A model generated the notes under the pieces. It was not told where the DNA came from, did not search any database, and worked only from the letters and a program-made list of their open reading frames with translations. A stretch of 64,000 bases of DNA from an uncultured Mollicutes bacterium. GTDB lineage: Bacteria; Bacillota_I; Bacilli_A; RF39; UBA660. The number at the start of each line of letters is the position of its first letter. Positions within the stretch are counted from its first letter, which is position 1. Below are positions 1 through 9,896 of the stretch, piece after piece. The translations under genes were made by a program, and so were the position numbers. The stretch is taken from contig CANTCS010000001.1 in assembly GCA_947652375.1 (NCBI GenBank), positions 132,976 to 196,975 of the forward strand, read 5' to 3'.

Positions 1-218
1 ACCATTTTTATAATAGATAATATAGTAACTATCATTTTATTTAAATTTGCTAATTTAATATGGAAAGTTAATCTAGCTTTCTTTATATACTATAGTTATT
101 TTATATCTATTACAATATGTATACTAATATTGTTTATTACTTTATACCTGATCCATAAAATTAAAAATACAAAAATATTAAGTCAATTATATACAAATTA
201 ATAGTATTTAACTTATAA

Positions 219-253
219 AAAACACGATGTTAGTTAATCGTGTTATTTTTTTG
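219..253. terminator. Rho-independent terminator, bidirectional (stem ACACGAT/ATCGTGT; A-run 5' and T-run 3')
   Basis: Read in sequence: aaaaaacacgatgttagttaatcgtgttattttttt. On the minus strand it follows the stop of the CAP-domain gene. Confidence 0.6.
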
Positions 254-357
254 TATCATTGTATACTCTTCCAATTAAATAATCAAATGAAATATTAGAA
301 CATTGAAATATAATTATTAAATTGTTATTAAAATTAGACAAAAAACAAATAAATTTG

Positions 358-1383
358 CTAATAATTCATCTTAAAAGAAGTTACAGCATACCACATTCCA
401 TTTACTTCATATACGCTTACCGCCATTGCAACATTCTGTTCTCTAAGCATTGTTGCATTATGAGATGGACTATTCTTCCAAGCCGTAATAAAATCAGAGC
501 CTATTCCACCATAACCAATATTTTCACCAAATCCATATCCTGCACCATCATGAGAATAATTTATTGATATCTCCTTAGATCTTCTATCAGCTTCTGATTG
601 AGTTTCAGAAGTATTTGGTAGTACAGACAAGCCATTTTCTTTTCTATATATATTTATCTGATTGGCAAAGGAATTAGAAATATCTTGACGATATTTAGGA
701 GAAGTAGCAGTGTTGTTATTAGTTATATTGTTAGATGGTTTAGATGATGGGGTTGTTGTCGATTTTGAATTATTTTTAGCTGGTTTCTTTTCTGAAACTT
801 TTGATTGCTCTTCTGTTTTCTTTTTAATTTTTAATATAAAATTCTTTGAAGTTATATTATTGTTTTCATCTTCAGCTACAACTTTTAATTTGTATTCTCC
901 AACTATTTTAAGATTATATTCTCCTTCTATTAAAACTTTTACTTTGGTTAAGTCTTTTGCTTCAAAATAAGTAGTTAAATCTAACTTATCTTCTGTTTCT
1001 TCAATTTCTATAGTATCTTTAAATGAAGAAAATTCTGGTGCAATAGTATCTTTTACTTTTATTACAAAATCAATTTTTTTCTTTTTGTAACTAATAGTTA
1101 TTTTATACTCACCTACTGGAACTAACTCTAATTCATCCATAACAAATAAATCATTATCCTTCTTTAATGATTCTGAAGATAGTTTATAATCTTTTATATT
1201 CTTAGTAGCATCAGTATCTTTTAAATAATTAGATACATCAGAACTAATTTTTTCTCCTAATTCATAAACGAATTCTTCTTTTTTTAATTCTATTTTATAT
1301 GTATTTTTATACACAATAAATAATCCTACTAAAAATATAATTAGTATTATAATAGGTATTACTATCTTTAAGATACGCTTCAT
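358..1383 (-). CDS. Secreted/membrane-anchored CAP (SCP/PR-1, YkwD-like) domain protein with N-terminal TM and Ig-like/Thr-Ser-Asn-rich linker
   Basis: 341-aa ORF. N-terminal hydrophobic segment. C-terminal motif GYGFGENIGYGG...AWKNSPSHNATML...VYEVNGMWYAVTSF, typical of CAP/YkwD domains. RBS GGAGGAG upstream. Confidence 0.7.
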   Translation of the reverse strand: MKRILKIVIPIIILIIFLVGLFIVYKNTYKIELKKEEFVYELGEKISSDVSNYLKDTDATKNIKDYKLSSESLKKDNDLFVMDELELVPVGEYKITISYKKKKIDFVIKVKDTIAPEFSSFKDTIEIEETEDKLDLTTYFEAKDLTKVKVLIEGEYNLKIVGEYKLKVVAEDENNNITSKNFILKIKKKTEEQSKVSEKKPAKNNSKSTTTPSSKPSNNITNNNTATSPKYRQDISNSFANQINIYRKENGLSVLPNTSETQSEADRRSKEISINYSHDGAGYGFGENIGYGGIGSDFITAWKNSPSHNATMLREQNVAMAVSVYEVNGMWYAVTSFKMNY

Positions 1384-1410
1384 AATTTACTCCTCCAAAC
1401 CTCTATGTCC

Positions 1411-1432
1411 TTGTGGTAATAAATTACCACAA
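1411..1432. repeat. Perfect palindrome TTGTGGTAAT-AA-ATTACCACAA. Its right half carries the putative attR core TTACCACAA (1424..1432)
   Basis: The 9-bp core is identical to the last codons plus stop of secA at 7405..7413. Flanks also match (about 15/19). See mobile element. Confidence 0.55.
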
Positions 1433-1445
1433 TATTTAATTCTAT

Positions 1446-1907
1446 TTAATCCAAGTAGAAATGATAAGTTCTTTCATAAATAAATTCCACTTGATTTGAA
1501 TAAACAGCTAAATAGAAATATGCTCTATTTTTATATCTTCTAATTGTTCTTTCTGATATTTCAAGTTTATCAGAAATTTCTCTATCCGTATAGCCGTATA
1601 AACATTTCATTCTTAGAAATTCTCTAATTGTTCTGTCTTCGTTTTGAATTCTAAAAATACTTCTTATATAATTTGCTATCTGATCTTCATTCCAAGATAA
1701 ACTTTTTAACAATCTATCAGATGACGCTGAACCTGTGGAAGCTCCAGAAAATACAACAATACTTGCTGAATTAAAGGTTTTAGTATTTAGTTGCCTTAAC
1801 CTTTTTTCAACTAAAGGTTGATATAATTCACAAATTTCCTTTCCTTTTATGACTGTTTTATCCATATCTATTTTTGATATAATTTCTTTATCAAAAATAT
1901 TAATCAT
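1446..1907 (-). CDS. ArpU-family phage transcriptional regulator (sigma-70 region-4-like HTH)
   Basis: 153 aa. C-terminal ...TIREFLRMKCLYGYTDREISDKLEISERTIRRYKNRA... resembles sigma region 4 / ArpU late-gene activators of Firmicute phages. Start overlaps stop of the upstream csp-like gene. Confidence 0.55.
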   Translation of the reverse strand: MINIFDKEIISKIDMDKTVIKGKEICELYQPLVEKRLRQLNTKTFNSASIVVFSGASTGSASSDRLLKSLSWNEDQIANYIRSIFRIQNEDRTIREFLRMKCLYGYTDREISDKLEISERTIRRYKNRAYFYLAVYSNQVEFIYERTYHFYLD

Positions 1908-2164
1908 TATTCAGAATCCATATTATCTTCTTCTGCATTGGATTCTTCTTCAGTTATTTTACGAACATTTATTGCTTTTTGTTTTTCTTCGTCATAATCA
2001 AAAATTACTGAATCATTCTCATCCAAAGTTTTAAATCCTTTCATTTGGATATCAGAAAAATGTACATATATATCATTTTCTATTTCACTACATGAGAGAA
2101 ATCCATATCCTTTCTCACTACTAAACCACTTAACATTACCTTTCATATTTACTTTTTCTTGCAT
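1907..2164 (-). CDS. Cold-shock-domain protein with acidic C-terminal tail (island cargo)
   Basis: MKGNVKWFSSEKGYGFL...DIYVHFSDIQ... CSD motifs, followed by a D/E-rich tail. RBS AAGGAGA 9 nt upstream of ATG at 2164. Confidence 0.75.
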   Translation of the reverse strand: MQEKVNMKGNVKWFSSEKGYGFLSCSEIENDIYVHFSDIQMKGFKTLDENDSVIFDYDEEKQKAINVRKITEEESNAEEDNMDSE

Positions 2165-2790
2165 ACTTTGCTTTCTCCTTTTCTATTCTTATTAACATCT
2201 GTACTACCTACTGCCAAATCATATAAACTATCAATTCTTTTTATTAAAAAATCAATAGCAAATACTAATAATGCAATAATTACTGCTAAATAGAAACTTC
2301 TCATTAAACTGCCTAACATCACAAAATTATAGGTTAATAGTGAACTTATTGGCAAAAATAATAATCCTTTAGCCATTATTGAAATAATCTTTTTTAAAGA
2401 GTATTTTCTTCTTCTACTAACATATAGAACTACAAACCACGACATAATAAAAGTTATAATGTAAGTATCAAAGACAAATTTTTTAAAAGCGTCTATATTC
2501 ACCAAAGCAACTCCCTCGTTGCAATACTTTAATCTGTTAAATAGATGAAATATAGTATTTGTAGATAAACATAAACAATATAGAATAAATACTAATAATA
2601 AAATATTCAATATTACTTTTAAAATTAATGATAACTTATGATAATTACGCATTCGCTTATTATTGCCTTCATTACACCAATAATTTTCTGAACTACTACT
2701 AAACAAATCTTTATAAAACTGCTTTACCTTTGCTTTAATATTTGTTCCTCCCTCTTTAAATCTCCAATGATACGGATAAAGCTTCATCAA
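2149..2790 (-). CDS. Hypothetical integral membrane protein (about 4 TM) with cytoplasmic N-terminus
   Basis: 213-aa ORF with several hydrophobic stretches. Overlaps the csp-like start by 16 nt and the MazF-like stop, so it is translationally coupled within an operon. Confidence 0.5.
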   Translation of the reverse strand: MMKLYPYHWRFKEGGTNIKAKVKQFYKDLFSSSSENYWCNEGNNKRMRNYHKLSLILKVILNILLLVFILYCLCLSTNTIFHLFNRLKYCNEGVALVNIDAFKKFVFDTYIITFIMSWFVVLYVSRRRKYSLKKIISIMAKGLLFLPISSLLTYNFVMLGSLMRSFYLAVIIALLVFAIDFLIKRIDSLYDLAVGSTDVNKNRKGESKVCKKK

Positions 2791-3079
2791 CTTTTTTCAT
2801 AGTTTTTTCATCTAATGTTTTAATGTAAGAAATTATTTGCTTCTTTGAAATAGTTAAAATACATTCACACAAAGCCATTTGATATGGTGTTATTACAACA
2901 TGTACAGGCATATTAGTCTTTTTAATTTTTGTTGTTAATGGTACAACAATTAGTGTTGGCGAAAAAGTATTACCCTGATTGTTTTGAACAATTAAACAAG
3001 GTCTTATTCCGTTTTGAACATGATCATAGGAATCATTTAATTCAGCTAAAAATATATCTCCTTTTTTAAAGTTTTTCAT
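2756..3079 (-). CDS. mazF: MazF/PemK-family mRNA interferase toxin
   Basis: GDIFLAELNDSYDHVQNGIRPCLIVQNNQGNTFSPTLIVVPLTTKIKKTNMPVHVVI matches the MazF/PemK fold signature. Likely start is MKNFKKGD at 3079 (the ORF extends to 3103). Confidence 0.75.
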   Translation of the reverse strand: MKNFKKGDIFLAELNDSYDHVQNGIRPCLIVQNNQGNTFSPTLIVVPLTTKIKKTNMPVHVVITPYQMALCECILTISKKQIISYIKTLDEKTMKKVDEALSVSLEI

Positions 3080-3339
3080 ATATAATAACTTTTGACCACA
3101 CATTCTACCTCTAAGATATAATAAGCATCTATTGGATATTTTACTCTTCGCTTATATCTATATTTATTTTCATATATTATTTTAAGAATACATGAATACC
3201 CTTCTTGTTCCAAAACTTCTATAATTTTTTCTCTACCGATTTTCTTGACTATATCTCTGCCACAACAACAATTGCCATATTTTCTTAAATGATGCAATAT
3301 CCAATCAGGGATTTTAATATTTTCTTTTGAAAACTTCAT
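3076..3339 (-). CDS. Small Cys/His-rich protein immediately upstream of and overlapping mazF. Putative non-canonical antitoxin
   Basis: 87 aa, HHLRKYGNCCCGR motif. No resemblance to MazE/PemI (AbrB or RHH). Position and overlap are typical of antitoxin-toxin pairs. Confidence 0.4.
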   Translation of the reverse strand: MKFSKENIKIPDWILHHLRKYGNCCCGRDIVKKIGREKIIEVLEQEGYSCILKIIYENKYRYKRRVKYPIDAYYILEVECVVKSYYI

Positions 3340-3560
3340 TTTGTTCCCCTCTCGAATCTTTTTAAACTATCCTTATTAAATCTAATTCAAATTGACTACC
3401 AACTTCAAAGAATTTTATTTCATCATCTCCATCAAATAAATAATAAACTTTGTTATTTATTACTTTAATGATAGTTAGAAAATACCCATGGTTATCAGAT
3501 AAGGTATTATATATTTTATACCTTTCCTTCTCTTTATAGTTTATTTAATCACCTCTTTTA

Positions 3561-3697
3561 GTTCATGATAGTAAACTTTTCTAATTAAAAAATAAAATAT
3601 ATTACTACATCTAAATGTGAAAAGTTTATAATACCTTTTCAAAGCACAATAACATCTACCACCTCCACTAAATCTAAAGTAGTTCACGATAGTAAAC
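3561..3697. repeat. Two direct copies of a 16-19 bp motif (TA)GTTCAYGATAGTAAAC(T) at 3561..3576 and 3682..3697
   Basis: Read directly. Related inverted copies occur at 4438..4453 and 4481..4496. Operator- or iteron-like. Confidence 0.6.
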
Positions 3698-3815
3698 TCT
3701 TTATACTAAAATAATAACCTTTTATTTAATAAAAGTCAATAACTTATTTTTATTTTTTATTTTTATAAACAAAACTGTATAGAATATCTATACAGTTCGT
3801 ACACACTTCAGTATT

Positions 3816-4118
3816 TTATGAATTTAATATTTTATCTAAAACATCTAAGGTTTTATCTAAGGATTCTTCATCTTCAACTGAAATTGTACTCACAGTACCA
3901 ATTATTTCTAATAGTCTTTCTAATTTTACTGCTGAAGAATTACAAAATAAAAGTTCTTTTTTCGTTTTATTGTAATCAGTTTCAATTTCCAAAATCTTTT
4001 TTACAACTTCTTCCATTACTTCATAAGGTATATCTTTCTTTTCTTCAAGATACTTTTCAATTTTTACTCCTAAAACTACTTCTACTTCTTTTACTGCATT
4101 TCTTTCTTCTTTAGTCAT
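3816..4118 (-). CDS. Hypothetical helical protein (island)
   Basis: The ORF runs to 4184 but the likely start is MTKEERNAV at 4118 (RBS AAGGAA about 10 nt upstream). It sits 3 nt after the stop of the upstream 64-aa ORF. Confidence 0.4.
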   Translation of the reverse strand: MTKEERNAVKEVEVVLGVKIEKYLEEKKDIPYEVMEEVVKKILEIETDYNKTKKELLFCNSSAVKLERLLEIIGTVSTISVEDEESLDKTLDVLDKILNS

Positions 4119-4120
4119 TT

Positions 4121-4315
4121 TTATTTTTCCTTTCCAATTGGTACTGCTTCTTGTGATGCCTTCTCCCTCAACTGCTTTAGACATACTTCCAAGATCTGAA
4201 TCACAGATTCATCATCCAATTGGCTTGTTGTACTTAGTTCTATATTTTTATTTGCAACTAAAATTTTGATACAACTCATCTGTTTTGAAGACTGCCCTTT
4301 ATTCAAAAATTTCAC
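4121..4315 (-). CDS. Hypothetical small protein (island)
   Basis: 64-aa ORF, first gene of a leftward operon divergent from the XRE-like gene. Confidence 0.3.
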   Translation of the reverse strand: MKFLNKGQSSKQMSCIKILVANKNIELSTTSQLDDESVIQILEVCLKQLREKASQEAVPIGKEK

Positions 4316-4437
4316 CTGCCTTTCTAATAGTCAGGATGAAAGTATCACCCATCTTACTATTTTCATTGCCTTACTCCTCCACTTCAAATATATAGTTTAA
4401 TACTATATAAAATATTTTATCATTTATTTCTTTTTGT

Positions 4438-4496
4438 GTCTACTATCGTGAACTTATTTTGGCTTTTATTGATTAATTAGGTTCACAATGGTAGAC
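4438..4496. promoter_or_regulatory. Inverted repeat GTCTACTATCGTGAAC (27 bp) GTTCACAATGGTAGAC in the divergent promoter region. Putative operator
   Basis: Read in sequence. The half-sites relate to the direct repeats at 3561/3682. Located between divergently transcribed genes (4315 minus, 4555 plus). Confidence 0.5.
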
Positions 4497-4554
4497 AATA
4501 TTATAAAAAAATAGTACAATGTTGATGATGTGATTATAACGAAAGGAGATAAAA

Positions 4555-4956
4555 ATGACTAAAGAAGAAGCCATCAGGTTTATAATTTCCGATTATTGTA
4601 AAATTCATAAAATTACGCCTACACAATTTGCAAGAGAAAGTGGGATTAGTAAAGCCTATATGAGTAAGATTATGAAAAAAAAGTATGGCAAAGTTGGTAT
4701 TTCCATGACTTATACTGAATTAATAGCTAAAGGAATGAAAATGAATATGATTGATTTTCAAAAATTAATTGAACAGTATAAGGAAAAAAATAATAGCACC
4801 AATTATAACCACGATACTGATATTCTTATAGCTCAAATTAATAATGAACTATATAATTTATCAAAAGAAGACTTAGAAGTAATACATAGTATTATAGTGA
4901 ATTCTGATTCTGGAAAATTAGATATTCTACATAATGTTTTGAAAAATATGAAATAA
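4555..4956 (+). CDS. XRE-family HTH transcriptional regulator (phage repressor/cro-like)
   Basis: ITPTQFARESGISKAYMSKIM helix-turn-helix. RBS GGAGA upstream of ATG 4555. Confidence 0.55.
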   Translation: MTKEEAIRFIISDYCKIHKITPTQFARESGISKAYMSKIMKKKYGKVGISMTYTELIAKGMKMNMIDFQKLIEQYKEKNNSTNYNHDTDILIAQINNELYNLSKEDLEVIHSIIVNSDSGKLDILHNVLKNMK

Positions 4957-4972
4957 CATATTTTTTTATTTT

Positions 4973-5836
4973 TTAATAATCTCTATCATAAAAGTCGTTT
5001 TCTTCTTCAAATTCAAGCTCCTTAAACCAACCAGTTTCTGGATCTATTTCCAATTTATCATTTATTCTTAATCTTTCAATGCAATTATTAATTGCTCCTT
5101 GAAAAAATCCAAACTTATTCTCTACTTTGTTACCATTTTCATCAATAAAATGTTTTGAAACTACTATTGGCACAATATAATGTGTCATTTTAACTAGATC
5201 CTTATATGAGTGTCCTTGCTGCAATAAATTTTCAAAATAATTGTCGTAATTGTATATATCAGTATCATATTCATCTATATAATTTTTTTCAATTAAATAA
5301 AGAGTTAAAGGATTTAATTCATCTAAATCGACGAATGGCAAATTTTCTTTAACTCTTTTAACTATTTGTTCTTTAATATTTTGTTTATTAGTATTTATTT
5401 GGGTATCCTTTTCGGCATCTCCTTCAACGGTATTCCCTTTTTGGGCATCTGGATTATCCTGTTGTTTTTCAACCTCTAATGGAATTTCACGAATAATATA
5501 TTCGTACTTATAATATCCTTTATCTCCTCTTGTTTGTTGTATTTCTAAATAGCCATGTTCTTTAAGTTCATTAAGTATAGTTCTTATGGCTTTAATATTT
5601 TCTTTACTAACTGCTACTAACCCTTTCATAGAGTAATCCCAATCTTCAGGCAAACTTAACATGAATGATAGTAGACCTTTTGCTTTATAAGAAAGATTTC
5701 TATCTTGCAAATGATAATTGCTCATAACTGTATAATTCTTTTGTTTTTTTATTTTAAATACTGCCATTACAATCACCCTTTCTTTTATTTTTAAACATTT
5801 AAAAAAGAACTGAATCTTGTCCAGTTCTATATTCAT
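4973..5836 (-). CDS. Replication initiator protein A N-terminal (RepA_N)-type winged-helix initiator
   Basis: FKIKKQKNYTVMSNYHLQDRNLSYKAKGLLSFMLSLPEDWDYSMKGL...ELKEHGYLEIQQTRGDKGYYKYEYII matches RepA_N of Firmicute plasmids, ICEs and phages. Confidence 0.6.
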   Translation of the reverse strand: MNIELDKIQFFFKCLKIKERVIVMAVFKIKKQKNYTVMSNYHLQDRNLSYKAKGLLSFMLSLPEDWDYSMKGLVAVSKENIKAIRTILNELKEHGYLEIQQTRGDKGYYKYEYIIREIPLEVEKQQDNPDAQKGNTVEGDAEKDTQINTNKQNIKEQIVKRVKENLPFVDLDELNPLTLYLIEKNYIDEYDTDIYNYDNYFENLLQQGHSYKDLVKMTHYIVPIVVSKHFIDENGNKVENKFGFFQGAINNCIERLRINDKLEIDPETGWFKELEFEEENDFYDRDY

Positions 5837-5852
5837 ATAATAACAGTTGTTA

Positions 5853-7166
5853 TCACGAAATTGATTCTGTAGGTTTCCTTGCTATAGCAATTTCTAAAGA
5901 GTCTGCATAATCTTCAAATTTACTAACTACTTCTTCTTCCATTTGAATTGTAACTCTTACATAAATGTTATAAGTTGTTTCAATCGTACTATGTCCTAAT
6001 CTTTTTGAAACAGCTTTTATATCTGCTCCTGCTTCAATTAGTCTAGTTGCATGTGTATCTCTAAAATCGTGAAATCTGCAAGGTATTCCTAACTCATAGT
6101 GAATTACTTTAAATGGATATTTACAAGTATTATTTCCCTCAAATGCTCCATTATTTTTTATAAATACTAAGTGTACTTCAGGTAAAGCAACATCAATTTC
6201 TGCAATACAATCAACTATTTTAGTTTCTGGTTTATTTGTATATGGATTTAAAACTTCTTTAGCATAATGTTTGATGTATGAATCTCCATATTGTTCTTTA
6301 TATATTTCTTGCTCTTCTTTAAATTCTTTTAAAGCAGCTGCTAATGTATCTCCAATATCAATTGTTCTGTAACTAGCTTTTGTTTTACACGGACCAAAAT
6401 ACCAAACAGTAGTCCTTTGCCCTTTTATAAGTCTGTGCTTTGTTCCACCCACTTGATTTTTTTCAACAATATTTTTATTTACTGTTAATTTCTTGTTTTC
6501 TAAATCAATGTCTTCCCATGTCAATCCAAATACTTCTGAAATTCTAAGCCCAGTATAATATGCCGTTAAAAAAGCATAATATATACAATGACTATTTTTA
6601 AATCTATTAAAAATCATTTCTATTTCTTCTGGTGTAAAAATATGAGCTGGATCTTCATCTGGACCATCATATCTTGGTAATCTTATTTTCAATGCTGGAT
6701 TATGCTTAATGAATCCGACACCATCTTCAGCATAAGCGAATGATGATTTTAAAACTTTCATTATACTTTTTAAAAAGTTTTTTGATACTCCTTTATTCAA
6801 AAATACATCTGTAAGAAAGTCATTTAATGTAGCTGTATCTATTTGCGATAACCTATAAAATCCTAGTTTTGGTTTAACATGATTTTTAATAATGCTTTTA
6901 TATGCCTCTATCGTATTATACCTTAGATTAATTTGACAATAGTTAGCCATCCAATAATCCAAAAAATCTGCATATGAACATGTATTAGGAGAAAATTTTT
7001 TACCTGTATTCATATATTCATTAAATGCTTTCATACCAGCAACATAAGCATCCTGCTTTGTCTTGAAACCTGACTTGTTAATAAACTTTCTAACTCCACC
7101 TTGTGGAGCTATTTCAAATCTATATTGATATAGATTTCCTCTTTTTGTTACATTCACTTTTCCCAT
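5853..7166 (-). CDS. int: Tyrosine-type site-specific recombinase / phage integrase
   Basis: C-terminal HDFRDTHATRLIEAGADIKAVSKRLGHSTIETTYNIYVRV (H-x-x-R...Y catalytic motifs). N-terminal arm-binding-like domain (GKVNVTKRGNLYQYRFE...). Confidence 0.85.
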   Translation of the reverse strand: MGKVNVTKRGNLYQYRFEIAPQGGVRKFINKSGFKTKQDAYVAGMKAFNEYMNTGKKFSPNTCSYADFLDYWMANYCQINLRYNTIEAYKSIIKNHVKPKLGFYRLSQIDTATLNDFLTDVFLNKGVSKNFLKSIMKVLKSSFAYAEDGVGFIKHNPALKIRLPRYDGPDEDPAHIFTPEEIEMIFNRFKNSHCIYYAFLTAYYTGLRISEVFGLTWEDIDLENKKLTVNKNIVEKNQVGGTKHRLIKGQRTTVWYFGPCKTKASYRTIDIGDTLAAALKEFKEEQEIYKEQYGDSYIKHYAKEVLNPYTNKPETKIVDCIAEIDVALPEVHLVFIKNNGAFEGNNTCKYPFKVIHYELGIPCRFHDFRDTHATRLIEAGADIKAVSKRLGHSTIETTYNIYVRVTIQMEEEVVSKFEDYADSLEIAIARKPTESIS

Positions 7167-7196
7167 AACTTCCTCCTCTAAATTTCTTTAGAGAAC

Positions 7197-7220
7197 GAAA
7201 AAATCAGCACGAATGCTGAT
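7197..7220 (-). terminator. Rho-independent terminator (stem ATCAGCA/TGCTGAT, then T-run on the minus strand) between secA and int
   Basis: cgaaaaaatcagcacgaatgctgat read in sequence. Would terminate secA read-through before int. Confidence 0.55.
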
Positions 7221-7274
7221 TATTGTGAATTTGTGTTCATTGAAAAATCCCTTGTTTTATAAGGCTTAGAGCAA

Positions 7275-7326
7275 TTGTGTGCATTAATTTTTTATTTTAC
7301 GCACACAAATTGCACACAAGTGTGCA
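7275..7326. promoter_or_regulatory. Clustered inverted repeats TTGTGTGC-N16-GCACACAA and TGCACAC-AA-GTGTGCA upstream of int
   Basis: Read directly. GC-containing palindromes in an otherwise AT-rich spacer inside the element near attL. Candidate int promoter operator or recombination-directionality / arm-type sites. Confidence 0.4.
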
Positions 7327-7400
7327 TTTTTAACTGTTTTTTGCCTATTTTTTTGACTTTTTTTACTACTGCACTACTTCACAAACCCTTATAAATTAAG

Positions 7401-9896
7401 TTATTTACCACAACATTGTTTATACTTCTTGCCTGAGCCGCAGCTGCAAATTTGATTTCGACCTATTTTTTGACTTCTTTTTGGTTGTTTTTTAGTAGTT
7501 TTTTCTTCTTTATCATTTGTTATTATTTTTTTTGTTGTTTCTTTTCTTTCTATATTTTGTCTTATTTCTGCTTTAAGTAAGAATATTGAAACATCTTTGT
7601 CTATTTTTTGTAGCATAGAATCAAATAAATCAAATCCTTCCATAGTATAAGCTCTTAAAGGATCTTCTTGAGCATAACCACGTAGGTGAATTCCTTCTCT
7701 TAAATGAGACATAGTGTTAATATGTTCCATCCAGTAATTATCTAGTACTTGTAATGTTATAACTTTTTCGAATTCTTGAACTATTTCTTCAGGTAAATCT
7801 TTAATTTTCTCTTCATATTCTTCTATAACTTTTTTAGATAAAAAGTCAATTAACTCGTTTGCTTCTTTATCTTTAATATCTTTTTCCGATAAATCAATTT
7901 TTAATAAGTTTTCATTAACAAACTCTGTTATCTCTCTAATATCATCCTCTGTTAAATAGTTTTCTGGTGGAATATGAGAATTAACTAAATCTTCTATATG
8001 ATGTCTATAGGTAGTTAAAACCATTTCATGTATTGATGTGTTATCTAAAATCTTATTTCTTTTTTCATAGATAATTTCTCTTTGATTATTCATAACATCA
8101 TCATATTGTAGTAAGCTTTTACGAATATCAAAATTATTTCCTTCTACTCTTTTTTGCGCTGTTCCAATTGATTTAGTGAATGTTTTACTTTGAATTGCTT
8201 GTTCTCCTAAACCCATTGACTCCATCATTGCACCAATTCTATCTGATCCAAAACGAACCATTAAGTCATCTTTCATCGAAACAAAGAATTGAGTATATCC
8301 TGGATCTCCTTGACGTCCTGAACGTCCACGCAATTGATTATCAATACGACGTGACTCATGACGCTCAGTTCCAACCACACACAAACCACCTAGTTCTTTT
8401 ATTTCATCTGATAATTTAATGTCTGTACCACGACCTGCCATATTTGTAGCAATAGTTACTGATTTACTTTGACCTATTTTTGAAATAATTTCTGCTTCTC
8501 TTTCATGATTTTTTGCATTTAAAACTTCATGAGGAATATGTGCTTGTTTTAACAATCTGCTAATTAGTTCACTTGTTTCAATAGCAATTGTTCCAATTAA
8601 TACAGGTTGCCCTTCATTATATCTTTCTTTTACAAACTCTATTACTGCTTTATATTTTGCTTCTTTTGTAGCATAAACTAAATCAGGAGCATCGATTCTA
8701 ATAACATCTTTATTAGTTGGAATTTCTATAACATACATATTATAAATGTTTCTAAATTCTTCTTCTTCAGTCTTTGCAGTACCTGTCATACCTGATAATT
8801 TTTTATACATTCTAAATAAATTTTGAAATGTAATTGTTGCTAAAGTTTTTGTTTCTTGATTAATATTTACGCCTTCTTTGGCTTCGATAGCTTGATGTAG
8901 TCCATCAGAATATGCTCTACCTTTCATTAAGCGTCCAGTAAATTGATCAACTATTACTATTTCGCCATCTTGAACAACATAATCTACATCATTGTTCATT
9001 GCGTAATTAGCACGAAGAGCTTGGTTTATAAAATGAAGTAATGTTGCATTATCTACATCATAAAGATTTTTTATTTTAAACATTTCTTCGGCTTTATCTG
9101 CTCCTAATTCTGTTAAGTTAACACTCTTTGTTTTTTCATCAAATATAAAATCTTTTTCAATAGTTAAACTTTTAGCATATTTATCTGCACTAGTATAAAG
9201 ATTTACATTAGACATTTCTCCACCAGATATAATTAAAGGTGTTCTTGCTTCATCAATTAAAACTGAATCAACTTCATCTATGATTGCAAAGTTTAGAGGT
9301 CTTTGAACTCTTTCTTCTTTTTTAACTACCATATTATCTCTTAAATAATCAAATCCTATTTCATTATTTGTAGAATATAATATATCACAATTGTACGCAG
9401 TTTGTTTTTCTTCTGATGTCATATCTCTTGTATTTACTCCTACTGTTAAACCTAGGAAACGATGAATTCCACCCATCCATTCAGCATCACGACTAGCTAG
9501 ATATTCATTTACAGTTATAATATGAACTCCATCTCCACTTAAGGCATTTAAATATGCAGGAAGAACAGATGTTAAGGTTTTTCCTTCTCCTGTTTTCATT
9601 TCTGAGATATTTCCATAATGTATTGCAAGTCCACCTAAAATTTGGACAAAATAATGTTTTTCTCCTATAACACGAAATGATGCTTCTCTTGCTGTTGCAA
9701 AAGCTTCTACTAAGATATCTTCTAAAGTTTCTCCTTTACTTAATCTCTCTTTAAATTCGTTTGTTTTATTTTGTAGTTCTGTATCAGTTAATTTTGAATA
9801 TTCTTCTTCTAATTCAAGAATTTGATTTGCTAGAACATTAAATCTTCTTAATTCTTTATACTCATGATCGAATAATTTTTTTAATATATTCATCAT
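7401..9896 (-). CDS. secA: Preprotein translocase ATPase SecA
   Basis: 831 aa. DEAD-like motor motifs. C-terminal zinc-binding CSCGSGKKYKQCCGK. Confidence 0.97.
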   Translation of the reverse strand: MMNILKKLFDHEYKELRRFNVLANQILELEEEYSKLTDTELQNKTNEFKERLSKGETLEDILVEAFATAREASFRVIGEKHYFVQILGGLAIHYGNISEMKTGEGKTLTSVLPAYLNALSGDGVHIITVNEYLASRDAEWMGGIHRFLGLTVGVNTRDMTSEEKQTAYNCDILYSTNNEIGFDYLRDNMVVKKEERVQRPLNFAIIDEVDSVLIDEARTPLIISGGEMSNVNLYTSADKYAKSLTIEKDFIFDEKTKSVNLTELGADKAEEMFKIKNLYDVDNATLLHFINQALRANYAMNNDVDYVVQDGEIVIVDQFTGRLMKGRAYSDGLHQAIEAKEGVNINQETKTLATITFQNLFRMYKKLSGMTGTAKTEEEEFRNIYNMYVIEIPTNKDVIRIDAPDLVYATKEAKYKAVIEFVKERYNEGQPVLIGTIAIETSELISRLLKQAHIPHEVLNAKNHEREAEIISKIGQSKSVTIATNMAGRGTDIKLSDEIKELGGLCVVGTERHESRRIDNQLRGRSGRQGDPGYTQFFVSMKDDLMVRFGSDRIGAMMESMGLGEQAIQSKTFTKSIGTAQKRVEGNNFDIRKSLLQYDDVMNNQREIIYEKRNKILDNTSIHEMVLTTYRHHIEDLVNSHIPPENYLTEDDIREITEFVNENLLKIDLSEKDIKDKEANELIDFLSKKVIEEYEEKIKDLPEEIVQEFEKVITLQVLDNYWMEHINTMSHLREGIHLRGYAQEDPLRAYTMEGFDLFDSMLQKIDKDVSIFLLKAEIRQNIERKETTKKIITNDKEEKTTKKQPKRSQKIGRNQICSCGSGKKYKQCCGK
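7405..7413. repeat. Putative attL core TTACCACAA overlapping the secA stop codon
   Basis: Identical 9-mer at 1424..1432 with similar flanks. Confidence 0.55.

What the first reader, a model, noticed from the sequence alone, without database searches (positions are those of the whole stretch)
2756..3339. MazF-like toxin paired with a non-canonical Cys/His-rich upstream partner
The 2756..3079 product has the MazF/PemK fold signature. The overlapping upstream 87-aa ORF does not resemble MazE/PemI, RHH or Phd antitoxins. It has an HH...CCCG motif and scattered Cys, suggesting a possible metal-binding domain. This could be a new antitoxin family or a fused regulator, carried as cargo on the mobile element. 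It may act as an addiction or anti-phage module.
Basis: partly seen in the sequence, partly recalled or inferred. Interest (0 to 1): 0.65.

Follow-up and report, generated by a model that had tools for sequence, protein, structure and literature searches.

The report
MazF toxin with uncharacterised coupled partner
A genuine MazF RNA-cutting toxin gene is always preceded by, and translationally tied to, a conserved 87-residue protein of no known family, which is probably a new kind of antitoxin; this is untested, and an overlooked acidic mini-gene just upstream is a serious alternative.

Summary
On the minus strand, an 87-aa ORF (3339..3076) overlaps by 4 nt (ATGA) a 107-aa MazF/PemK gene (3079..2756). 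The MazF matches Pfam PF02452 at 5e-25 and keeps the catalytic Arg/Thr.

The 87-aa protein (p87) is real. It has 33 close clusters, is under purifying selection and matches no known antitoxin family. It precedes every member of this MazF clade examined, and the 4-nt overlap is kept in 28 of the 29 loci with both genes complete. mazF has no ribosome-binding site of its own.

The interpretation needs three corrections.
- The pair is not variable cargo. It is a fixed part of a conserved ~6.8-kb, 11-gene integrative element of uncultured gut Bacilli. Its operon carries the same operators as the element's cI-like repressor promoter.
It rivals p87 as the neutraliser.
- p87 belongs to a wider family of small phage and mobile-element proteins, most of which are not next to toxins and lack the CCC motif. 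A possible (H/C)17-C24-C26-C50 metal site is clade-specific and unproven.

Verdict: probably a new antitoxin family for a known toxin, at moderate confidence.

The parts
2756..3079 (-). mazF: 107-aa MazF/PemK endoribonuclease toxin
   Evidence: PF02452 at 5.2e-25. B. subtilis EndoA structures at 3e-20. R26 and T49 (Bs R25/T48) are invariant in the clade, and those residues are catalytic per PMC7354611. pN/pS is 0.43. No Shine-Dalgarno sequence precedes its ATG.
3076..3339 (-). p87: 87-aa basic protein (pI 9.2), candidate antitoxin. It is a member of an uncharacterised family of small phage and mobile-element proteins.
   Evidence: 33 clusters with invariant H17, GNCCCGR and C50. The AF2 model has pLDDT 80 with alpha-beta-alpha-alpha-beta-beta order. 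No significant fold neighbour in PDB; the best BFVD hit is an uncharacterised siphovirus protein, TM 0.60. The 4-nt stop/start overlap with mazF is kept in 28 of the 29 loci with both genes complete. pN/pS is 0.34.
3365..3544 (-). p57: conserved acidic ~58-60-aa ORF, first gene of the operon. It has an ATA start directly after a TAA, preceded by the SD sequence AAAGAGGTGAT.
   Evidence: translation. tblastn finds it immediately upstream of p87 in every element locus. 15 clusters are called as genes elsewhere. Family pI is ~4.9 and the C-terminal half is pI 4.1. No family or PDB match. The AF2 model has only pLDDT 56.
3711..3739 (-). Promoter-like site for the p57-p87-mazF operon (TTGACT-17-TATTAT)
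   Evidence: 10 of 12 matches. It lies just downstream of a terminator-like hairpin. This is a consensus match only.
3772..3798 (-). Terminator-like hairpin after the preceding gene (p122), separating transcription units
   Evidence: the only terminator-like site in 2100-4700, against 0.3 expected.
3682..3697 (-). Operator-like 16-mer GTTTACTATCGTGAAC (copy 1), just downstream of the -10 box
   Evidence: Part of a 32-nt direct repeat. The position is conserved about -358 nt from p87 in related elements.
3561..3576 (-). Operator-like 16-mer GTTTACTATCATGAAC (copy 2), just upstream of the p57 ribosome-binding site
   Evidence: The position is conserved about -240 to -265 nt from p87 in related elements.
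4438..4496 (.). Two further copies of the same operator type (GTCTACCATTGTGAAC and GTCTACTATCGTGAAC) in the divergent promoter region between the cI-like HTH gene and p122
   Evidence: sites at -1157 and -1114 relative to p87. They overlap the TAGACA -35 boxes of both promoter-like sites.
4555..4956 (+). HTH133: cI/Xre-like repressor candidate, the probable binder of the four operators
   Evidence: Weak HTH_26/HTH_3 hits. Its recognition-helix variant SRAYINK goes with the operator variant GTCTAC in L001, L009 and L010. This is an inference.
2149..2741 (-). Multi-pass membrane protein, the next gene of the operon. It probably starts at ATT after the SD sequence GAGGGAGGAA.
   Evidence: It is conserved in all element loci.

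Best explanation
p87 and MazF form a translationally coupled toxin-antitoxin-like pair in which p87 is the protein inhibitor of the MazF endoribonuclease.

Proposed mechanism:
- mazF has no ribosome-binding site and starts inside the p87 stop codon (ATGA). MazF can therefore be made only by ribosomes that have just finished p87, so the inhibitor is always made first and in excess.
- p87 is a compact, basic alpha/beta protein from an uncharacterised phage and mobile-element family. The mazF-linked branch carries an extra 8-10-residue C-terminal tail (here ECVVKSYYI). It also has a clade-specific (H/C)17-C24-C26-C50 set that might hold a metal.
- The pair, together with the upstream acidic p57, heads an operon (p57-p87-mazF-membrane protein-cold-shock protein-sigma/ArpU-like activator-CAP-domain protein) of a ~6.8-kb integrase/replication-initiator element.
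- That operon carries two copies of the same operator that flanks the promoter of the element's cI-like repressor. Toxin and inhibitor are therefore probably expressed mainly when the element is derepressed.

Shown: gene identities, coupling geometry, conservation, co-occurrence and operator layout.
Inferred: binding and neutralisation by p87, repressor control, and any metal site.
For: - MazF is intact and constrained: Pfam 5e-25, catalytic R26/T49 invariant, pN/pS 0.43. Some neutralising or silencing mechanism is therefore needed.
- p87 lies directly upstream of every member of this MazF clade examined: about 45 loci from genome, metagenome and assembly collections, down to 46% p87 identity.
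- The 4-nt overlap is kept in 28 of the 29 loci with both genes complete, although synonymous sites are saturated, and there is no SD before mazF.
- Loss is one-way. L005/L006 have lost mazF (only MKVID* and a 3' remnant remain) yet keep p87 intact. No locus has mazF without p87.
- The C-terminal extension beyond the YILE strand is present in the mazF-linked members and absent from most of the wider family.
- Small basic Cys-rich proteins sit directly upstream of other MazF lineages in metagenomes. A basic partner is therefore not unusual.
- Folded antitoxin domains that neutralise diverse toxins are documented (PMC10440598).
Against: - No binding or neutralisation could be tested.
- p87 is basic (pI 9.2), as is MazF (pI ~9). 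Canonical MazE proteins are acidic RNA mimics, and the neighbouring p57 is the acidic one.
- Most relatives of p87 are not next to any toxin. They occur in a chromosomal site, phage early regions, and fusions to Rha or Xre DNA-binding domains. The domain's ancestral role is therefore something else.
- p87 survives mazF loss, so it may have an independent function.
- The promoter operators look like those of the element's repressor, not toxin-antitoxin autoregulation.
- The mirror-tree analysis could not single out p87-MazF co-evolution.
Confidence: 0.5

Rival explanations
1. This is a three-gene module in which the overlooked acidic p57 is the MazF-neutralising antitoxin. p87 is a basic nucleic-acid-binding regulator or accessory factor, analogous in logic to omega-epsilon-zeta or paaR-paaA-parE, where regulator and antitoxin are separate proteins.
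For: - p57 is present directly upstream of p87 in every element locus.
- It is the size of short MazE proteins (~58 aa).
- It is acidic (family pI ~4.9). Its C-terminal half is acidic and aromatic (FDGDDEIKFFEVGSQFELDLI, pI 4.1), like MazE tails (E. coli MazE computes to pI 4.7).
- Canonical MazE proteins next to other MazFs are acidic and end in ..DWEW.
- Its AF2 model is poorly ordered (pLDDT 56), as many antitoxins are.
- p87's helix/strand order matches a winged-helix topology, and it has a basic loop.
Against: - p57 is not adjacent to mazF.
- It is p87, not p57, whose stop codon overlaps the mazF start.
- p57 has no similarity to any antitoxin family or solved structure.
- p57 is also retained where mazF is lost, so retention does not discriminate between the two.
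- Basic upstream partners occur in other MazF lineages.
Confidence: 0.22
2. There is no dedicated protein antitoxin. MazF is an effector of the element that is kept silent by the cI-like repressor and released on induction, for example to shut off host or helper-phage mRNAs. p87 is a core regulatory protein of the element, such as an anti-repressor-like or DNA/RNA-binding factor. Its coupling to mazF only sets expression level.
For: - The same 16-mer operator occurs twice at the repressor's own divergent promoter and twice between the operon promoter and p57.
- The operator variant tracks the HTH133 recognition helix.
- The operon is a fixed unit with RNA-related genes (cold-shock protein, sigma-like activator).
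- p87 relatives occur without toxins and as C-terminal domains of Rha and Xre regulators.
- The nearest outgroup MazF (47-48% identity) also lacks a MazE and sits among regulatory, Xis and Int genes of another element.
Against: - Repression is never complete, and an unopposed MazF with intact catalytic residues would be costly.
- The strict, deep conservation of the ATGA coupling and the one-way loss pattern are what an antitoxin-toxin pair predicts.
- The operon's own mRNA is not depleted of UACAU, the B. subtilis MazF site, so there is no sign of self-protection by motif avoidance.
Confidence: 0.15
3. The MazF copy is catalytically dead or domesticated, acting for example as an RNA-binding regulator, so no antitoxin is needed.
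For: The whole clade has a 7-residue deletion relative to B. subtilis EndoA in the loop after the HVxI strand.
Against: Catalytic R26/T49 and most substrate-groove residues are invariant. Purifying selection acts on the gene. mazF was lost outright in one lineage rather than drifting.
Confidence: 0.05

Closest known systems
MazEF / EndoA-EndoAI (YdcE-YdcD) of Bacillus subtilis and other Firmicutes (type II toxin-antitoxin)
   Same: - The toxin is a clear homologue (3e-20 to 4mdx/4me7) with the catalytic Arg/Thr.
- The upstream small gene overlaps the toxin start by 4 nt.
- Both sit in a bicistronic arrangement inside an operon.
   Different: - The upstream protein has no RHH or AbrB domain, is basic rather than acidic, and has no sequence or fold similarity to MazE.
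- The toxin clade has a 7-residue loop deletion.
- The operon has a third conserved small gene (p57) and five more downstream genes.
- Its operators are shared with the element's repressor promoter.
Three-component toxin-antitoxin operons (omega-epsilon-zeta; paaR2-paaA2-parE2)
   Same: Two small conserved genes precede the toxin. One is acidic and one is basic and possibly nucleic-acid-binding, so regulator and neutraliser may be separate proteins.
   Different: - There is no homology to omega, epsilon, PaaR or PaaA.
- If p57 is the antitoxin, the gene order (acidic-basic-toxin) differs from regulator-antitoxin-toxin.
- Regulation seems to come from a fourth protein, HTH133.
Partner-swapped type II systems with novel folded antitoxin domains (NetFlax network, Panacea/HTH-type 'conformational' neutralisers; PMC10440598)
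   Same: A known toxin fold (MazF/PemK) is paired with an unannotated antitoxin domain that also occurs in other contexts and domain fusions.
   Different: The p87 domain matches no family in Pfam, NCBIfam, PHROGs or PADLOC (one weak PADLOC hit, PbeC). No neutralisation data exist. Most of its relatives are not next to toxins.
MqsA-type zinc-containing antitoxins
   Same: Both are Cys-rich antitoxin candidates partnered with an RNase toxin. A structural zinc site in an antitoxin has a precedent (own knowledge).
   Different: - There is no homology.
- MqsA has a classical CxxC...CxxC site and follows its toxin.
- p87's putative ligand set (H/C17, C24, C26, C50) is not a classical zinc-ribbon pattern and is unverified.

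Membership tests
MazF/PemK toxin (PF02452) | Sequence match above the curated family threshold over the full domain | tested here: met
   88.2 bits against a 23.1-bit cutoff, profile positions 1-108 of 109. 3e-20 to solved EndoA/MazF structures.
MazF/PemK toxin (PF02452) | Catalytic Arg (Bs R25) and Thr/Ser (Bs T48) | tested here: met
   R26 and T49 align to them and are invariant in 24 clade members. Their role is taken from PMC7354611.
MazF/PemK toxin (PF02452) | Sequence-specific endoribonuclease activity and growth arrest | not testable with these tools
   This needs expression and cleavage assays.
Type II toxin-antitoxin system | Small antitoxin gene adjacent to, and co-transcribed with, the toxin, usually overlapping it | tested here: met
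   ATGA/TTGA overlap in 28 of the 29 loci with both genes complete. One promoter-like site lies upstream of p57, and no terminator-like site lies within the operon region scanned, 2100-3770.
Type II toxin-antitoxin system | Antitoxin protein binds and neutralises the toxin | not testable with these tools
The mirror-tree analysis was uninformative.
Type II toxin-antitoxin system | Antitoxin (or the complex) autoregulates the operon at palindromes in its own promoter | tested here: inconclusive
   Palindromic operators exist at the promoter. The same operator also sits at the cI-like repressor's promoter and co-varies with that repressor's recognition helix. This points to HTH133 rather than p87.
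Type II toxin-antitoxin system | Toxin is not found without its antitoxin, whereas orphan antitoxins occur | tested here: met
   No clade mazF lacks p87. L005/L006 keep p87 after mazF decay.
MazE/PemI (AbrB-type, PF04014), RHH and Phd/YefM antitoxin families | Sequence or fold match of the partner to one of these DNA-binding antitoxin domains | tested here: not met
   p87 has no hit in Pfam, NCBIfam or PHROGs or in a PDB profile search. Foldseek against PDB gives nothing with E<0.1. p57 likewise has no hit.
Winged-helix DNA-binding fold | H1-S1-H2-H3-S2-wing-S3 topology with significant structural neighbours | tested here: inconclusive
Zinc/metal-binding small protein | Four conserved Cys/His ligands that co-occur and lie within bonding distance | tested here: inconclusive
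   - (H or C)17, C24, C26 and C50 co-occur in the p87 clade and in a second clade where H17 is replaced by C.
- Most of the wider family lacks them.
- L056 has C24Y, and L061/L062 have C25A.

The most novel reading that the evidence does not exclude
The p87 clade is a previously unrecognised antitoxin family. It would be a folded, basic, possibly metal-binding (H/C-C-C-C) domain recruited from a widespread family of small phage regulatory proteins, neutralising MazF through a three-dimensional surface plus a short C-terminal tail rather than an acidic RNA-mimicking peptide. A Cys cluster could make toxin release sensitive to redox state or metal. With p57, it would form a new three-part MazF module that an integrative, satellite-like element of uncultured gut Bacilli switches on when derepressed.
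Probability: 0.15. Interest if true: 0.7.

Novelty: new variant of a known kind. Interest (0 to 1): 0.45.

Why it matters
If p87 (or p57) neutralises MazF, it adds an antitoxin family with no similarity to any described one. It would also give a first functional handle on a family of small phage and mobile-element proteins that has no annotation: at least 89 clusters at 50% identity, some fused to Rha or Xre regulators.

The setting is also unusual. The toxin module is a fixed, repressor-controlled part of a tiny integrative element in uncultured gut Bacilli (RF39-like metagenome-assembled genomes), not a free-standing addiction cassette. It could therefore show how mobile elements use MazF during induction.

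The result is not surprising in kind. Partner swapping and novel antitoxin domains are well documented for type II systems.

Tried and rejected
- **Phage collections:** IMG/VR scans for p87 and p57 relatives found none. tblastn of p87 and of a Rha-fusion relative against INPHARED phages found none.
- **Mirror-tree correlation** of pairwise distances: all nine block genes co-diverge (r = 0.82-0.95), so p87-MazF co-evolution cannot be singled out.
- **Motif avoidance:** UACAU, the B. subtilis MazF site, is not depleted in the operon (5 copies, 1.57/kb against 1.0/kb in host genes). No 5-mer is significantly depleted. A 'self-immune transcript' idea is therefore dropped.
- **RNA antitoxin or riboswitch:** there are no Rfam matches in 1-9000 at E<=0.1.
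- **TGA as Trp (code 4):** rejected, because SecA and other host genes read intact under table 11.
- **PADLOC PbeC hit to p87** (15.8 bits, 37 residues): too weak and local to use.
- **Literature searches** for MazF with winged-helix, zinc or cysteine-rich antitoxins, or on phage satellites, found nothing describing this pair.
Full report
**1. Observation**

On the minus strand an 87-codon ORF (p87, 3339..3076) ends in TGA inside the sequence ATGA. The ATG of that sequence starts a 107-codon ORF (3079..2756).

The downstream product is a full-length MazF/PemK toxin:
- Pfam PF02452 at E=5.2e-25, 88 bits against a 23-bit cutoff.
- PHROG 'MazF-like growth inhibitor' at 9e-23.
- Closest solved relative is B. 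subtilis EndoA/MazF (4mdx, 4me7, 1ne8) at 3e-20.

Aligned with EndoA, window residues R26 and T49 correspond to Bs R25 and T48. Those two residues have been shown by mutagenesis to be essential for MazF catalysis (PMC7354611). Both are invariant in 24 clade members. The clade shares a 7-residue loop deletion relative to EndoA.

p87 has no significant match in Pfam, NCBIfam or PHROGs, only a weak PADLOC hit (PbeC, 15.8 bits), and nothing in a profile search of PDB sequences. It does carry HH (16-17) and GNCCCGR (22-28).

**2. Is p87 a real gene?**

Yes.
- A search of 5.8 billion proteins found 33 clusters at 53-91% identity, all 85-96 aa.
- H17, G22-N23-C24-C25-C26-G27-R28, C50 and K67-Y68-P69 are invariant, against a mean column identity of 67%.
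- Across 15 diverse loci the median pN/pS is 0.34, with synonymous sites near saturation. For mazF it is 0.43.
- SecA and other host genes in the window read intact under table 11, so the TGA that ends p87 is a stop codon.

**3. Context: a fixed block, not cargo**

The pair lies in a small integrative element. Read along the minus strand the gene order is:
- tyrosine integrase (7166..5853; PF00589 at 5e-25);
- replication-initiator-like protein (5836..4973);
- an Xre/cI-like HTH protein on the opposite strand (HTH133, 4555..4956);
- p122 (4184..3816);
- p57, p87, mazF;
- a multi-pass membrane protein;
- a cold-shock-domain protein;
- a 153-aa sigma-region-4/ArpU-RinA-like activator;
- a secreted CAP-domain protein (1383..358).

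In the near-identical element of metagenome-assembled genome (MAG) contig CAKOLG010000001 (locus L007) the block is bounded by secA and an ABC transporter. That makes it about 6.8 kb with 11 genes and no virion genes.

The block from HTH133 to CAP recurs in 29 species-level MAGs labelled uncultured Bacilli/'Tenericutes', from human, ruminant, rabbit and mouse guts, and in many metagenome contigs. It sits next to different host genes: secA, relA, leuS and rpsB-tsf. Pairwise distances of all nine block genes are highly correlated (r = 0.82-0.95). The block therefore evolves as a unit, and mazF is not a variable cargo gene.

**4. Coupling of p87 and mazF**

In 31 loci analysed base by base, 29 have both genes complete.
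- In 28 of those 29, the p87 stop and the mazF start overlap by 4 nt (ATGA or TTGA). One locus has a 17-nt overlap.
- One further locus is cut off by its contig end. One lineage (L005/L006) has lost mazF.
- There is no Shine-Dalgarno sequence before mazF (AAAAGTTATTATATATGAAA). In contrast, p57 (AAAGAGGTGAT), p87 (GAGAGGGGAA) and the membrane gene (GAGGGAGGAA) each have one.

This is the geometry of termination-reinitiation coupling. The inference is that MazF is made only after p87.

Every member of this MazF clade that was looked up has a p87 homologue directly upstream. The clade comprises 53 clusters at 46% identity or more, 51 of them at 56% or more. This holds down to p87 relatives of 41-46% identity (P0036, P0035).

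In L005/L006 mazF is reduced to MKVID* plus a recognisable 3' remnant, while p57 and p87 remain intact. Toxin never without partner, but partner without toxin, is the asymmetry expected of a toxin-antitoxin pair.

**5. What p87 is**

*Predicted structure.* AlphaFold2 with the 33-sequence alignment gives pLDDT 80 and pTM 0.64. The element order is H12-21, E23-25, H27-34, H36-45, E50-56, E72-78, with a basic loop at 57-71 and a poorly ordered tail at 79-87. By my own reading, this order matches a winged helix, or a type-I KH core if the first helix is dropped.

*Fold searches.* Foldseek finds no significant PDB neighbour. The best hits are Rpc34 at TM 0.37 and several KH/STAR domains at TM ~0.3. 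In BFVD the only convincing hit is an uncharacterised siphovirus protein (TM 0.60, probability 1.0).

*Wider family.* An exhaustive profile search of 1.84 billion representatives found 89 proteins at E<=1e-3. They form a family of 60-100-aa proteins with the core P.W(I/V)...L..(Y/F)GN(C)......K.G....L..L...G(Y/F).C.(L/I)......YILE. Their contexts vary:
- Some are C-terminal domains of Rha-type (P0071, P0092) or Xre-type HTH proteins (P0100, P0111, P0120).
- Others are stand-alone: beside icd/gltA in a chromosome, in phage replication or early regions, and in a phi29-like phage contig.
- None of these has a MazF neighbour.

The domain is therefore a general phage and mobile-element module of unknown role, and the mazF-linked proteins are one branch of it. 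That branch differs by an 8-10-residue extension after the last strand (ECVVKSYYI, GNKVLNYKRD, VVGTRRSI, MEEKIRIYNL), whereas most of the wider family ends within about 4 residues of YILE.

**6. The Cys/His motif**

Across 121 family members, only N23, L18 and G47 are nearly universal.
- The full set (H or C)17-C24-C26-C50 occurs in the p87 clade and in a second clade (..QCLDQYGNCACG..C.L), where a Cys replaces H17.
- 11 members have none of these residues and 19 have only C50.
- C25 is not needed: GNCACG is found in the mazF-linked L061/L062. L056 has GNYCCG.

The H-to-C exchange at one position, with co-occurrence of the other three, is the kind of pattern metal ligands show. The site is not a classical zinc ribbon, however, and it is not family-wide. 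I could not measure distances in the model. Metal binding remains possible but unproven.

**7. A missed gene: p57**

A conserved ORF runs between the promoter region and p87 (3544..3365): INYKEKERYKIYNTLSDNHGYFLTIIKVINNKVYYLFDGDDEIKFFEVGSQFELDLIRIV.
- In the window and in L007 it begins with ATA directly after a TAA, 5-6 nt from a good SD sequence. In other elements the equivalent start appears to be ATG, GTG, TTG or another non-ATG codon (read from translations).
- It is found in every element locus and is called as a gene in 15 clusters.
- It has no family, PDB or fold match. Its model is poorly ordered (pLDDT 56).
- It is acidic (family pI ~4.9; C-terminal half pI 4.1). By contrast p87 (pI 9.2, +7) and MazF (pI ~9) are basic.

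Canonical MazE proteins found next to other MazFs in the metagenome scan are acidic (pI 4.4-5.3) and end in ..DWEW. On charge alone, p57 looks more like a MazE-type groove binder than p87 does.

Against that, other MazF lineages in the same scan have small basic CxxC...CxxC proteins directly upstream (L075, L091/92/96, L127/128). And it is p87, not p57, that is translationally coupled to mazF.

**8. Regulation**

The layout upstream of the operon is as follows:
- A terminator-like hairpin (3798..3772) follows p122. It is the only one in 2100-4700.
- A promoter-like site (TTGACT-17-TATTAT, 3739..3711) follows it.
- Between this promoter and p57 lie two copies of a 16-mer, GTTTAC-TATC-GTGAAC (3697..3682 and 3576..3561), inside a 32-nt direct repeat spaced 121 bp apart.
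- Two more copies (GTCTAC..GTGAAC) lie at ~4496-4481 and ~4453-4438. They overlap the -35 boxes of the divergent promoter-like sites between HTH133 and p122.

This four-site layout recurs, in full or in part, in most related elements, with element-specific half-sites: GTTTAC/GTAAAC, GTCTAC/GTAGAC and GTCCAC/GTGGAC. The GTCTAC variant goes with a changed recognition helix in HTH133 (SRAYINK in L001, L009, L010), while the conserved core of p87 is unchanged.

The most economical reading is an inference: the cI-like HTH133 represses both its own region and the p57-p87-mazF operon. Toxin and partner would then be expressed mainly on derepression. This fits a role during element induction better than classical post-segregational addiction. 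Which of these, or phage defence, applies cannot be decided here.

**9. Mechanism and alternatives**

| Explanation | Confidence |
|---|---|
| p87 is the MazF inhibitor, made first through translational coupling. It probably acts through its folded domain plus the clade-specific tail, within a repressor-controlled operon. | 0.5 |
| p57 is the neutraliser and p87 a nucleic-acid-binding accessory protein (three-part module). | 0.22 |
| There is no protein antitoxin. MazF is a repressor-silenced effector and p87 a core regulator. | 0.15 |
| MazF is inactive or domesticated. | 0.05 |

A test of self-protection by motif avoidance was negative. UACAU occurs 5 times in the 3.2-kb operon and no 5-mer is significantly depleted. 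There is no Rfam RNA in the region.

**10. Comparison and novelty**

The toxin is an ordinary member of MazF/PemK. The system works like a type II toxin-antitoxin pair in layout, coupling and loss asymmetry.

The partner fails every membership test for the MazE/PemI, RHH and Phd families. It belongs instead to an unannotated domain family. Partner swapping and new antitoxin domains are well documented (PMC10440598). I therefore rate this a new variant of a known kind, not a new category.

The nearest outgroup MazF (47-48% identity, L067-L071) also lacks a MazE. It sits between a sigma-like gene and an Xis-like/integrase pair of a different element. This branch of MazF may therefore be generally embedded in the control regions of mobile elements.

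Literature searches found no description of this pair or of p87-like proteins.

**11. Verdict**

A new antitoxin family is plausible. 'Cargo' is wrong. The metal site is unproven. p57 was missed.
- Interest is moderate (0.45). This would be a useful addition to toxin-antitoxin diversity and a functional lead for an unannotated phage-protein family, but it is not surprising in kind and currently has no functional evidence.

Noticed in passing
window 3365-3544 (-): A conserved acidic ~58-aa ORF (p57) with an apparent ATA start directly after a TAA and a good SD sequence. It is present in all related elements but invisible to ATG/GTG/TTG ORF listing. Its function is unknown.
   Followed up: yes
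window ~2741 (-), start of the membrane-protein gene 2149..2790: The membrane protein after mazF probably starts at ATT, 7 nt after a strong SD sequence (GAGGGAGGAA). The N-terminal region upstream of the first ATG is conserved at protein level in L005. Together with p57, this suggests that non-ATG (ATA/ATT) starts are used repeatedly in this element or lineage.
   Followed up: partly
window 3561-3576, 3682-3697, ~4438-4453, ~4481-4496: There are four copies of a 16-mer operator, GTYYAC-N4-GTRRAC. Two are at the divergent promoter of the cI-like repressor and two are between the operon promoter and p57. The layout recurs in most related elements, with element-specific half-sites that track the HTH133 recognition helix.
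   Followed up: partly
window 358-7166: The whole element is ~6.8 kb with 11 genes: integrase, replication initiator, cI-like repressor, p122, p57, p87, MazF, membrane protein, cold-shock protein, ArpU/RinA/sigma-r4-like activator and secreted CAP-domain protein. It has no virion genes. It is inserted next to secA here and next to other host genes elsewhere. It may be a phage-satellite-like or other integrative element of RF39-type gut Bacilli.
   Followed up: partly
L005 6277-6500 and L006: In the most divergent element lineage, mazF has decayed to a 5-codon stub (MKVID*) plus a recognisable 3' remnant. p57 and p87 stay intact.
   Followed up: yes
L075, L091, L092, L096, L127, L128 (metagenome contigs): Other MazF lineages (35-45% identity) have small, very basic CxxC...CxxC zinc-ribbon-like proteins (42-112 aa as called) directly upstream in place of the acidic RHH-type MazE (..DWEW) seen in L089, L094, L095, L100, L111 and L117. 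This may be another unrecognised class of MazF partner.
   Followed up: no
L067-L071 (for example L068 3477-3833): The nearest outgroup MazF (47-48% identity) lies between a 185-aa sigma-like gene and a 74-aa Xis-like HTH gene whose start overlaps the mazF stop by 4 nt, followed by a tyrosine integrase. There is no MazE-like gene upstream.
   Followed up: partly
P0071, P0092, P0100, P0111, P0120; loci L042-L045, L132, L133: The p87-like domain occurs as the C-terminal domain of Rha-type and Xre-type phage regulators (one also with a weak MazG-like C-terminal match). It also occurs as a stand-alone small gene in a phi29-like phage contig and in a temperate-phage early region. It is an unannotated phage and mobile-element domain family with at least 89 clusters at 50% identity.
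   Followed up: partly
window 3772-3798 (-): A 12-bp-stem terminator-like hairpin directly after p122 separates p122 from the p57-p87-mazF operon. It is the only such site in 2100-4700.
   Followed up: no
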